Shown here piece after piece: positions 221-1,508 of a DNA stretch of 1,547 nt. Position numbers and translations under genes: made by a program. The notes under the pieces are model-generated. The model saw only the letters and a list, made by a program, of their open reading frames with translations, ran no database searches and was not told where the DNA came from. The stretch is from the sequence record OR845860.1. The stretch is one strand, 5' to 3'. Each line of letters starts with the position of its first letter. Within the stretch, counting starts at the first letter, position 1. This DNA is from Escherichia phage ECO95 1-6-1.

Positions 221-232
221 AGATTACGAAAG
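221..232. repeat. Candidate terminal inverted repeat, transposase-distal end (overlaps the transposase stop codon)
   Basis: AGATTACGAAAG matches the reverse complement of 1496..1508 at 11 of 13 aligned columns (6 contiguous, one mismatch, one 1-nt gap). The match is short and could be chance. Confidence 0.3.
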
Positions 233-1360
233 CCCGCTCCCCGCAAGGACTGACGCCAGATAGTTTCTGTCCATGGCTGCTTTTCGCATCTTACGTCTTA
301 ACCCTGCCTTGAATACCTTATCATTCGTCAAAATATTAATAGCAATGTGCCGTATCCCTGAAAATAATTCTGCTGCATTTCCTCTTCTTATTTTGCAGTC
401 GTCTTCATTCATTACCACGTCCAGACGCCAGTGCAGCTTATTCTCCACGTGCCAGTGGTTTCGGATTGCTGTGGCGAACTTCTCTGCGGTTAAATCAGCA
501 GAACTGATATAATATCTGACCGTCATTTCTGACTCTTTCTTTTGTTCTGCTATTATGGACCGAAAGGAGACTGCCACGCATAATTTCTTCAGCCCTTTCC
601 ATTCAAACGTGAAATCAATAAGTTCATCAGGGACTTCGCAAACAATATGAAGACGGATTTCTTCTCTGCCGTGACTCTTTTCACTAATTGCGTAACTGTC
701 ATGCTCTGGATTATTTAATTCTTTCAGCGGAAATTTTTCCTCAAAGGCTTTATTTAGCCGCCCCTGGTTTCCTTTTACCGCGAATAAATAATCACCTCCC
801 TGTTTTTGTATCTTCTCTGCAATATCTTTCTGGCACCCCATCGCATCAGTTGTGATGATTTTTCCTTTAATATCCAGTATGTTAAGAAGTTCAGGGGGAG
901 CTGTAATCTCATTAGATTTCTCATCCGTCTTGATCTGTCCGATGACCAGACTGTGCATTGTTGAGAACGCACTAATGACATGAATCGCTCCCCTGCGGCG
1001 ACTCTTGTCATAAGAGTGCCGGAGCGTTTTTCCATCAATTGCAATGACGTCTTTATCATCTGAAGAATGGCAGTCACGCATCCAGTTAATAAAGCACTCA
1101 TGAAATTTTGCAGGACTGATACAGGATACAACTCTGGCAATGGTATCGTGAACAGGAATACCATTTTCAAAATCACCATATTGCCTCAAAAAATCGAGAT
1201 GCGTTTCACCAAAATCCTCTATATCTTCCCAACCTTCTGCACCAGAAATGACGGCACAAATAGTCAACAGTAGAATATCTGACAATTTATGTTCTACTTT
1301 CCAGGCTTGTCTGTAATCGGGGATAATAGAAATATGTTCCATCAATTTTTTAAGTTCCAT
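224..1360 (-). CDS. ISAs1-family DDE transposase (H-repeat-associated protein, YhhI/YdcC/YbfD-like), full length, 378 aa
   Basis: Single uninterrupted ORF with ATG at 1360..1358 and TAA stop (plus-strand tta at 224..226). AAGGAG Shine-Dalgarno sits 6 nt upstream of the ATG. Catalytic residues checked directly against the DNA: D109 in VIAIDGK (codon 1034..1036, plus atc), D172 in IITTDAMG (codon 845..847, plus atc), E306 in [12 protein letters not shown] (codon 443..445, plus ctc). The HW-x-EN...R signature is typical of IS4-superfamily/ISAs1 transposases. Family assignment is from memory of the protein family, not a database search. Confidence 0.93.
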
Positions 1361-1365
1361 TTTGT

Positions 1366-1371
1366 TCTCCT
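1366..1371 (-). promoter_or_regulatory. Shine-Dalgarno / ribosome-binding site of the transposase gene
   Basis: Plus-strand ctcctt is AAGGAG on the minus strand, followed by AACAAA (6 nt) and the ATG at 1360..1358. Confidence 0.65.
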
Positions 1372-1386
1372 TATTTATGCAAGGAG
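1366..1386 (-). other. Inverted repeat able to form an mRNA hairpin that occludes the transposase RBS
   Basis: Plus 1366..1371 ctcctt and plus 1381..1386 aaggag are exact reverse complements. In the minus-strand transcript this reads 5'-CUCCUU-GCAUAAAU-AAGGAG-AACAAA-AUG: a 6-bp stem with an 8-nt loop in which the SD is the 3' arm. Folding energy was not computed. Confidence 0.35.
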
Positions 1387-1495
1387 TATTTGATCATATG
1401 TAAGCTGTGAAAAACAGTTTTAGATAATAAGGAATATCTCAATTATTGAACATTTAGTGCGAATTATTTAGTACAAAAAGTGAACTTTTGATGAT

Positions 1496-1508
1496 CTTTC
1501 CCTAATCT
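1496..1508. repeat. Candidate terminal inverted repeat, transposase-proximal end
   Basis: Plus strand CTTTCCCTAATCT; its reverse complement AGATTAGGGAAAG pairs with 221..232. A GATC site (1493..1496) abuts its inner edge. Confidence 0.3.

What the first reader, a model, noticed from the sequence alone, without database searches (positions are those of the whole stretch)
221..1508. Provisional element boundaries from imperfect terminal inverted repeats; stop codon lies inside the repeat
AGATTACGAAAG (221..232) and the reverse complement of 1496..1508 (AGATTAGGGAAAG) are the best inverted-repeat pair I could find between the two flanks. They give a 1288-bp element, which fits the size I recall for H-rpt elements. 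The transposase stop codon (224..226) would sit 4 bp from the terminus. I found no flanking direct repeat: 213..220 is gcagggca and 1509..1516 is cacatagg.
Basis: partly seen in the sequence, partly recalled or inferred. Interest (0 to 1): 0.35.

Follow-up and report, generated by a model that had tools for sequence, protein, structure and literature searches.

The report
ISEc1 (H-rpt) ends, corrected

Summary
However, the 12/13-nt inverted pair (221-232 / 1496-1508) is a chance, out-of-register match: 99.8% of shuffled flanks give an equal or better pair.

Comparing about 20 copies in unrelated flanking contexts shows that shared sequence starts at window 214 and ends at 1503/1504. The contexts include E. 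coli nfrB-Rhs, ydcC/RhsE, yhhI/RhsB and an O-antigen cluster, plus E. albertii, E. whittamii, Shigella, Pseudocitrobacter and Cedecea. The element is therefore 214..1504, or 1291 bp, which is the modal length (10 of 18 distinct copies).

Its termini are CAGGGAAAGATCA... (IRL; this copy has T for the first C) and CAGGGCAAGATTACG... (IRR). This is the published ISAs1-family signature. A Cedecea copy and more distant relatives carry perfect 10-bp target duplications directly against these termini.

The right flank (1505-1547) is a relic of the 5' part of a group II intron, not a target site. The copy is also a mosaic of paralogous H-rpts. This is a known element of low interest.

The parts
214..1504 (-). 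Complete ISEc1 / H-rpt insertion sequence (ISAs1 family), 1291 bp
   Evidence: Similarity to copies in about 20 unrelated contexts begins at 214 and ends at 1503/1504. The modal terminus-to-terminus length is 1291 bp in 10 of 18 distinct copies. Megablast against 5426 E. coli genomes most often returns 214-1503.
214..233 (.). IRR, the terminal inverted repeat at the 3' end of the transposase gene. It reads CAGGGCAAGATTACGAAAGC inward from 214 and contains the stop codon.
   Evidence...CGTAATCTTGCCCTG| is followed by unrelated sequence in about 18 contexts. L089 keeps window 1-213 and diverges at 214. It aligns with the IRL at 13 of 20 positions in this copy and at 15-16 of the first 18 positions with type-B IRLs of other copies (counted by eye from the sequences printed).
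1485..1504 (.). IRL, the terminal inverted repeat upstream of the transposase gene. On the transposase strand it reads TAGGGAAAGATCATCAAAAG (consensus first base is C).
   Evidence: CAGGGAAAGATCA... is preceded by unrelated sequence in about 20 contexts. The window, the ydcC copy (L003) and L027 have T at nt 1.
224..1360 (-). Transposase ORF, 378 aa, intact (ATG 1360..1358, TAA 226..224)
   Evidence: Pfam DDE_Tnp_1_assoc (116.6 bits) plus DDE_Tnp_1 (101.4 bits). NCBIfam NF033564 transpos_ISAs1, 412 bits against a cutoff of 70. D109, D172 and E306 are invariant among 11 relatives.
1367..1372 (-). Shine-Dalgarno AAGGAG, 6 nt upstream of the ATG
   Evidence: Read directly from the sequence.
1505..1547 (-). 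Relic of the 5' part of a group II intron (about intron nt 151-194), same strand as the transposase, running off the window end
   Evidence: 43-44 nt are 100% identical to L003 4291-4334 and L001 4775-4817. There Rfam RF01999 (group-II-D1D4-2) matches in full on the minus strand at 93.1 bits against a gathering score of 36. The junction maps to intron nt 194. The window alone gives no Rfam hit.
1..100 (.). Chromosomal backbone upstream of nfrB
   Evidence: nfrB's start lies 43 bp left of the window in L001/L002. Genomes without the island match only 1-100 and have cusS next to nfrB (H40).
101..213 (.). Island (Rhs-region) DNA between the backbone and the H-rpt IRR; not part of the IS
   Evidence: Present only at the nfrB locus and 100% identical to O157:H7. 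It is retained without an adjoining H-rpt in L089.
221..232 (.).
1496..1508 (.).

Best explanation
Window 214..1504 is one complete 1291-bp copy of ISEc1, the H-repeat (H-rpt) of E. coli Rhs regions, which belongs to the ISAs1 family. It encodes a single 378-aa DDE transposase on the minus strand. Imperfect terminal inverted repeats bound it, with the family's CAGGG termini: IRL at 1504..1485 (TAGGGAAAGATCATC..., first base mutated from C) and IRR at 214..233 (CAGGGCAAGATTACG...). The stop codon sits at nt 11-13 of the IRR. By inference from the family, the transposase binds the two IRs, cleaves at the CAGGG termini and inserts with a 10-bp staggered cut. Relatives show this as perfect 10-bp duplications. 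This copy is not a fresh insertion. It has no duplication. Its IRR abuts Rhs-island DNA next to nfrB. Its IRL abuts a truncated group II intron. Its body is a patchwork of other H-rpt paralogues. Recombination, gene conversion or deletion has therefore reshaped it since insertion. Shown: identity, ends, length, intact ORF, absence of a duplication, nature of the flanks. Inferred: the cleavage mechanism, and whether this copy can still move.
For: Family: Pfam and NCBIfam NF033564 at 412 bits. RefSeq annotates the homologous CDS as 'ISAs1-like element ISEc1 family transposase'. Ends: junction alignments across three E. coli loci and about 20 contexts in 8 or more species. An E. albertii repeat-only contig of 1290 bp spans exactly 214-1503. 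L089 diverges from the window exactly at 214, and L090 keeps only the first 8 nt of the IRR (CAGGGCAT) before an IS3 end. Length: 1291 bp in 10 of 18 distinct copies. Termini validated by duplications: Cedecea L014 has TATTAGGTAC|CAGGG...CCCTG|TATTAGGTAC. Agarivorans, Aliivibrio, Alteromonas, Alishewanella and an Alteromonadaceae MAG have CAGGG/CACGG termini with perfect 10-bp duplications. Literature: ISAs1 has a 14-22-bp IR starting CAGGG and a 10-bp DR (PMC11946415); ISArsp11 has IR CAGGGCTGATGC... and a 10-bp DR (PMC6305408). Catalytic candidates D109/D172/E306 are invariant.
Against: Within the window alone the true IR is statistically no better than chance. The first IRL base is T rather than C, so the right end could be called 1503 or 1504. 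There is no target duplication in this copy (flanks TATGTGAGAT vs CCTGCTCACC). The ISfinder reference entry for ISEc1 could not be consulted. Transposition of H-rpt has reportedly never been observed (PMC3032704), so the mechanism rests on family inference.
Confidence: 0.92

Rival explanations
1. One reading: the element is 221..1508 (1288 bp), bounded by AGATTACGAAAG / AGATTAGGGAAAG.
For: The two strings exist and are inverted relative to each other. The size is close to that of H-rpt.
Against: Every independent copy shares 214-220 (CAGGGCA), and none shares 1505-1508 unless it also carries the intron relic. 1505-1508 maps to intron nt 191-194. The pair is at chance level. The family termini are CAGGG.
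Confidence: 0.01
2. The right end of this particular copy is 1503, not 1504. The terminal C of the IRL was lost in the event that joined it to the intron, and the T is a filler or flank base, making this copy 1290 bp.
For: BLAST similarity to most copies stops at 1503. Position 1504 is A on the + strand here and in L003, against G in other copies.
Against: The longer intron versions have A, not T, at the corresponding position on the transposase strand (GAGAT|ACAGTG). The T is therefore not intron sequence, and a C-to-T transition at IRL nt 1 is the simplest reading. An unrelated copy (L027) also has TAGGG.
Confidence: 0.2
3. The unit that spread between loci is larger than the IS. It would be IRL stub (15 nt), intron 5' fragment, then the full H-rpt, with its outer end at the stub beyond the window's right edge.
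For: In L003, L001, L085 and L087 the intron's 5' end is preceded by CAGG(G/A)AAAGATCA(C/TC)G, and sequence upstream of that stub differs between loci.
Against: No 10-bp duplication flanks stub..IRR in any of the four loci. Most H-rpt copies lack the intron and end at 1504. The window stops at 1547, so the stub cannot be seen here.
Confidence: 0.12
4. The window is a chimeric assembly of several H-rpt paralogues (a collapsed repeat), not a real locus. The ends of the IS would be unaffected, but the pairing of flanks would be artefactual.
For: The left flank plus 1-246 is identical to the O157:H7 nfrB copy. The body differs at only 5 sites from the O157:H7 275-kb copy. The terminal 25 bp and right flank are of ydcC type. 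No complete E. coli genome holds 1300-1547 above 94% at full length.
Against: Gene conversion among paralogous IS copies gives the same pattern. O121 RM8352 really does have the intron relic beside the nfrB-locus H-rpt, so the combination of nfrB flank and intron flank is biologically attested.
Confidence: 0.25

Closest known systems
ISEc1 = H-rpt (H-repeat) of E. coli Rhs elements (copies yhhI in RhsB, ydcC in RhsE)
   Same: 95-98% nucleotide identity over 214-1503 to copies that RefSeq annotates as ISEc1-family. Same 378-aa ORF, same termini, same 1291-bp length. Same Rhs-associated setting.
   Different: The first IRL base is T, not C. The copy is a mosaic of several paralogues. Its exact combination of flanks was not found in 5426 complete E. 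coli genomes.
ISAs1 family (for example ISAs1 of Aeromonas salmonicida, or ISArsp11)
   Same: Single DDE transposase, NF033564 match, about 1.2-1.3 kb, IR starting CAGGG.
   Different: Relatives that appear active have perfect 10-bp target duplications and 43-57% protein identity. This copy has no duplication.
E. coli group II introns associated with H-rpt/IS elements. Titles are as listed: Knoop & Brennicke 1994, Ferat et al. 1994, Dai & Zimmerly 2002. Their contents are recalled only and were not read here.
   Same: The window's right flank is a 5' fragment of such an intron. A 76%-identical full-length intron with ltrA splits an ISAs1 transposase ORF in L086.
   Different: Here only 43 nt of a 194-nt relic are in the window, and the relic abuts the IS terminus rather than interrupting the ORF.

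Membership tests
ISAs1 family of insertion sequences | Encodes one DDE transposase matching the ISAs1 profile | tested here: met
   NCBIfam NF033564 at 412 bits (cutoff 70), E = 1.5e-123. Pfam PF13808 plus PF01609. One long ORF of 378 aa.
ISAs1 family of insertion sequences | Terminal inverted repeats of 14-22 bp that begin with CAGGG (PMC11946415) | tested here: met
   IRR CAGGGCAAGATTACGAAAGC at 214-233. IRL TAGGGAAAGATCATCAAAAG at 1504-1485, with C at nt 1 in 15 of the 18 copies listed (the window, L003 and L027 have T). 13 of 20 positions match in this copy.
ISAs1 family of insertion sequences | 10-bp target-site duplication at insertion | tested here: not met
   The flanks TATGTGAGAT and CCTGCTCACC differ. 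The feature is met in relatives L014, L037, L038, L045, L046, L050, L052, L051 and L039. Its absence marks an old or rearranged copy and does not exclude family membership.
ISAs1 family of insertion sequences | Length about 1.2-1.5 kb (range recalled from ISfinder, not checked here) | tested here: met
   1291 bp. Relatives measure 1237-1250 bp.
ISEc1 (specific element) | Near-identity to the ISfinder ISEc1 reference sequence and its stated ends | not testable with these tools
   ISfinder is not available. As a proxy, 95-98% nucleotide identity to RefSeq copies named 'ISAs1-like element ISEc1 family transposase'.
Group II intron (right flank 1505-1547) | Match to a group II intron covariance model | tested here: inconclusive
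   There is no hit on the window's own 43 nt. The identical sequence continues in L003 and L001 into a full RF01999 match at 93.1 bits and, in ECOR29, into the start of an RT-like ORF.

The most novel reading that the evidence does not exclude
The same group II intron is truncated at four nested positions (about 160, 194, 462 and 750 nt). Each truncation is joined exactly to nt 1 of an H-rpt IRL, and each is preceded by the same 15-nt IRL stub. Together these would be a fossil record of terminus-precise, transposase-mediated events in E. coli (adjacent deletions or repeated insertions) by an element for which transposition has reportedly never been observed.
Probability: 0.3. Interest if true: 0.3.

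Novelty: already known. Interest (0 to 1): 0.08.

Why it matters
Mostly for correct annotation. The IS ends are 214 and 1504, so the apparent flanks are other mobile or island DNA rather than a target site. The absence of a direct repeat is therefore expected and not puzzling. The case also illustrates that short imperfect inverted repeats cannot be called from a single copy: both the wrong pair and the right pair are within chance in this window. The intron-relic junction series gives a small, testable hint that H-rpt ends were once active.

Tried and rejected

2. 8-10-bp direct repeats at the corrected ends: none in the window or in the E. coli Rhs-associated copies.

3. An uninterrupted target site: the empty nfrB-cusS site only shows that the backbone ends near window 100. 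L089 keeps 101-213 without an adjoining H-rpt and then continues into other island DNA, so it fixes the boundary but is not a clean empty site.

4. Rfam on the window itself, at both gathering and E<=10 thresholds: no credible hit.

5. Promoter/terminator scan: counts are no higher than in shuffles, and no promoter could be assigned to the transposase.

6. Plasmid collection: only 26 records, mostly chromosome-like, adding nothing.

7. Literature: the 1291-bp figure for H-rpt could not be confirmed in the held library. Knoop & Brennicke 1994 and Dai & Zimmerly 2002 are not held.

8. Source of the window: not identified.

Full report
OBSERVATION

The window was read in full. The quoted strings are all at the stated coordinates:
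- 221..232 is AGATTACGAAAG.
- The reverse complement of 1496..1508 is AGATTAGGGAAAG.
- 213..220 is GCAGGGCA.
- 1509..1516 is CACATAGG.

The only long ORF is on the minus strand, 1360..224, 378 aa, with its TAA at 226..224.

The pair is real as text but not as a signal. The pair that turns out to be correct scores 10, which 82% of shuffles reach. A single copy therefore cannot reveal the ends.

WHAT THE ELEMENT IS

The ORF matches Pfam DDE_Tnp_1_assoc and DDE_Tnp_1. It matches the NCBIfam equivalog NF033564 'ISAs1 family transposase' at 412 bits against a cutoff of 70.

Megablast finds the sequence in all 5426 complete E. coli genomes. There are 27,725 places, a median of 5 per genome, annotated 'ISAs1-like element ISEc1 family transposase' and including yhhI and ydcC. 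The neighbours are Rhs genes and Rhs-associated ORFs. This is the classical H-repeat, ISEc1.

Candidate catalytic residues D109, D172 and E306 are invariant in an alignment with ten relatives of 43-74% identity. An AAGGAG lies 6 nt before the ATG. The gene therefore looks intact.

WHERE THE ENDS ARE

Base-by-base junction alignments were made first for three unrelated E. coli loci: the nfrB-adjacent Rhs, ydcC/RhsE and yhhI/RhsB. The flanks converge at window 214 (CAGGGCAAGATTACG...) and diverge after ...GATGATCTTTCCCT at 1503. Position 1504 is G in three contexts and A in the window and the ydcC copy.

The sample was then extended to 79 loci from the species-representative genome collection. 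BLAST endpoints again cluster at 213/214 and 1503. In transposase orientation every copy begins (C/T)AGGGAAAGATCA... after unrelated sequence, and every copy ends ...CGTAATCTT(G/T)CCCTG before unrelated sequence. This holds in about 20 upstream and about 18 downstream contexts, from E. coli, Shigella, E. albertii, E. whittamii, Pseudocitrobacter, Entomohabitans, Scandinavium, Cedecea, Citrobacter and several MAGs.

Further support for these ends:
- An E. albertii contig that consists only of the repeat is 1290 bp long and spans exactly 214-1503.
- Terminus-to-terminus length in 18 distinct copies is 1291 bp in ten of them, including the window at 214..1504.
- Isolate CB7453 keeps window 1-213 and diverges exactly at 214.
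- Isolate F1267 keeps only the first 8 nt of the IRR (CAGGGCAT) before an IS3 end.

INDEPENDENT VALIDATION OF THE TERMINI

The Cedecea copy (L014, 74% protein identity) is flanked by a perfect 10-bp duplication: TATTAGGTAC|CAGGG...CCCTG|TATTAGGTAC.

Multi-copy relatives at 48-50% identity show the same features. These are Agarivorans, Aliivibrio logei, Alteromonas, Alishewanella and an Alteromonadaceae MAG. They have termini CAGGG (or CACGG)...CCCTG, an IRL such as CAGGGCAAGATCACGAAC that visibly resembles the ISEc1 ends, and perfect 10-bp duplications.

This matches published descriptions. The ISAs1 IR is 14-22 bp starting with CAGGG, with a 10-bp DR (PMC11946415). ISArsp11 has IR CAGGGCTGATGCAAAGTCG and a 10-bp DR (PMC6305408).

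- Its left arm is nt 8-19 of the true IRR.
- Its right arm is nt 1-9 of the true IRL plus four bases (1505-1508) of the neighbouring sequence.
- The stop codon is nt 11-13 of the IRR. The title's second clause holds, but at 10 nt from the end rather than 3-4.

THE FLANKS, AND WHY THERE IS NO DIRECT REPEAT

Left flank. Window 1-100 is chromosomal backbone just upstream of nfrB. Genomes without the island match only 1-100 and have cusS there instead. Window 101-213 is island DNA.

Right flank. Window 1505-1547 is 100% identical to sequence beside the ydcC copy and, 270 bp further out, beside the nfrB-locus copy of O121 RM8352. In both places it lies within a complete match to Rfam RF01999 (group II intron D1-D4) on the transposase strand, at 93.1 bits against a gathering score of 36. 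The window alone is too short to score.

The IRL thus abuts a group II intron relic, and the ten bases outside the two ends (TATGTGAGAT and CCTGCTCACC) are unrelated.

MECHANISM

By family inference, the DDE transposase recognises the two IRs, cleaves at the CAGGG termini and integrates with a 10-bp stagger. This is shown only indirectly here, through the duplications in relatives.

For this copy the evidence points to a resident, rearranged element: no duplication, a transition at IRL nt 1, and mosaic sequence. A review-type statement that H-rpt transposition has not been observed is quoted in PMC3032704.

SIDE FINDINGS

(a) Nested intron truncations. In four loci the intron begins GTGTGCCGTAGGC immediately after a 15-nt IRL stub (CAGGGAAAGATCACG and variants). 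It is then cut off at about nt 160 (E. coli C, yafV locus), nt 194 (ydcC locus and the window), about nt 462 (O121 nfrB locus) or nt 750 (ECOR29 O-antigen cluster, including the start of the RT ORF). Each time it is joined exactly to nt 1 of a full IRL. 2563 of 5426 genomes carry some form of the fragment.

The simplest history is an intron that homed into an H-rpt IRL after nt 15, followed by terminus-precise events. These could be IS-mediated adjacent deletions, or H-rpt insertions into the intron followed by recombination between the two H-rpt copies.

A 76%-identical full-length intron with ltrA splits an ISAs1 ORF in strain M00057. This fits my recollection of the 1994 reports of E. coli group II introns in H-rpt. 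Their titles appear, but the papers could not be read.

(b) The window's copy is a patchwork:
- 1-246 equals the O157:H7 nfrB-locus copy.
- The body 214-1479 differs at only five sites from another O157:H7 copy at about 275 kb.
- The last 25 bp are a 'type A' IRL, as in ydcC and yhhI. Both O157 copies instead have a 'type B' IRL (CAGGGAAAGATCACCTAACGCC...).
- No complete E. coli genome has 1300-1547 above 94% at full length.

Gene conversion among paralogues or a chimeric repeat assembly would both explain this. Neither affects the position of the IS ends.

VERDICT

This is a known element. The ends are corrected to 214 and 1504 (1291 bp). Interest is low.

Noticed in passing
window 1505-1547; L003 4291-4501; L001 4507-4985; L085 3991-4754; L087 2491-2665: A group II intron 5' relic lies directly against the H-rpt IRL. 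It is always preceded by a 13-15-nt IRL stub and is truncated at nested positions (about 160, 194, 462 and 750 nt), each joined to IRL nt 1. It is found at four or more different chromosomal loci and in 2563 of 5426 E. coli genomes.
   Followed up: partly
window 214-1504 compared with L002, L084 and L003: The copy is a mosaic of at least three paralogous H-rpts: an O157 nfrB-locus left part, an O157 275-kb-locus body, and a ydcC-type terminal 25 bp plus flank. No complete E. coli genome carries this combination. The cause is either gene conversion or an assembly chimera.
   Followed up: partly
window 1479-1491 and the same region in the loci: There are two IRL subtypes downstream of the shared CAGGGAAAGATCA. 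Type A is TCA(A/G)AAGT(T/A)CAC. Type B is C(G/C)TAACGC(T/C)(G/A)C. Type B pairs better with the IRR and resembles the IRLs of distant active relatives.
   Followed up: no
L086 3023-6032: A full-length group II intron with ltrA splits an ISAs1-family transposase ORF in E. coli M00057. A second, intact ISEc1 copy lies immediately downstream. The intron's 5' region is 76% identical to the relic.
   Followed up: no
L012 and L015, about 859-3460: This is a tandem array of H-rpt pieces at about 0.73 Mb in two E. coli genomes. The IRR terminus CCCTG of one copy is joined directly to nt 26 of the next copy's left end, and a partial copy precedes them.
   Followed up: no
L003 4487-4530: Stacked end fragments lie upstream of the intron relic at the ydcC locus. 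On the transposase strand they read CAGGGGCAGATT, CAGGGAAAGATCA and CAGGGAAAGATCATCG in tandem.
   Followed up: no
L090 about 2618-2640: At the nfrB locus of isolate F1267, only the first 8 nt of the H-rpt IRR (CAGGGCAT) remain, followed directly by an IS3 left end (TGATCTTACCCAGC...) and a PAAR-domain gene. The IS3 has replaced the rest of the H-rpt.
   Followed up: no
L008 2127-2193: The Pseudocitrobacter copy has a second IRR-like end (…CGTAATCTTGCCCTG) 46 bp beyond the first.
   Followed up: no
window 1-213; L088: The Rhs/H-rpt island sits between nfrB and cusS. The backbone ends near window 100, so the island lies within about 150 bp of the nfrB start codon, in what should be its upstream regulatory region.
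   Followed up: partly
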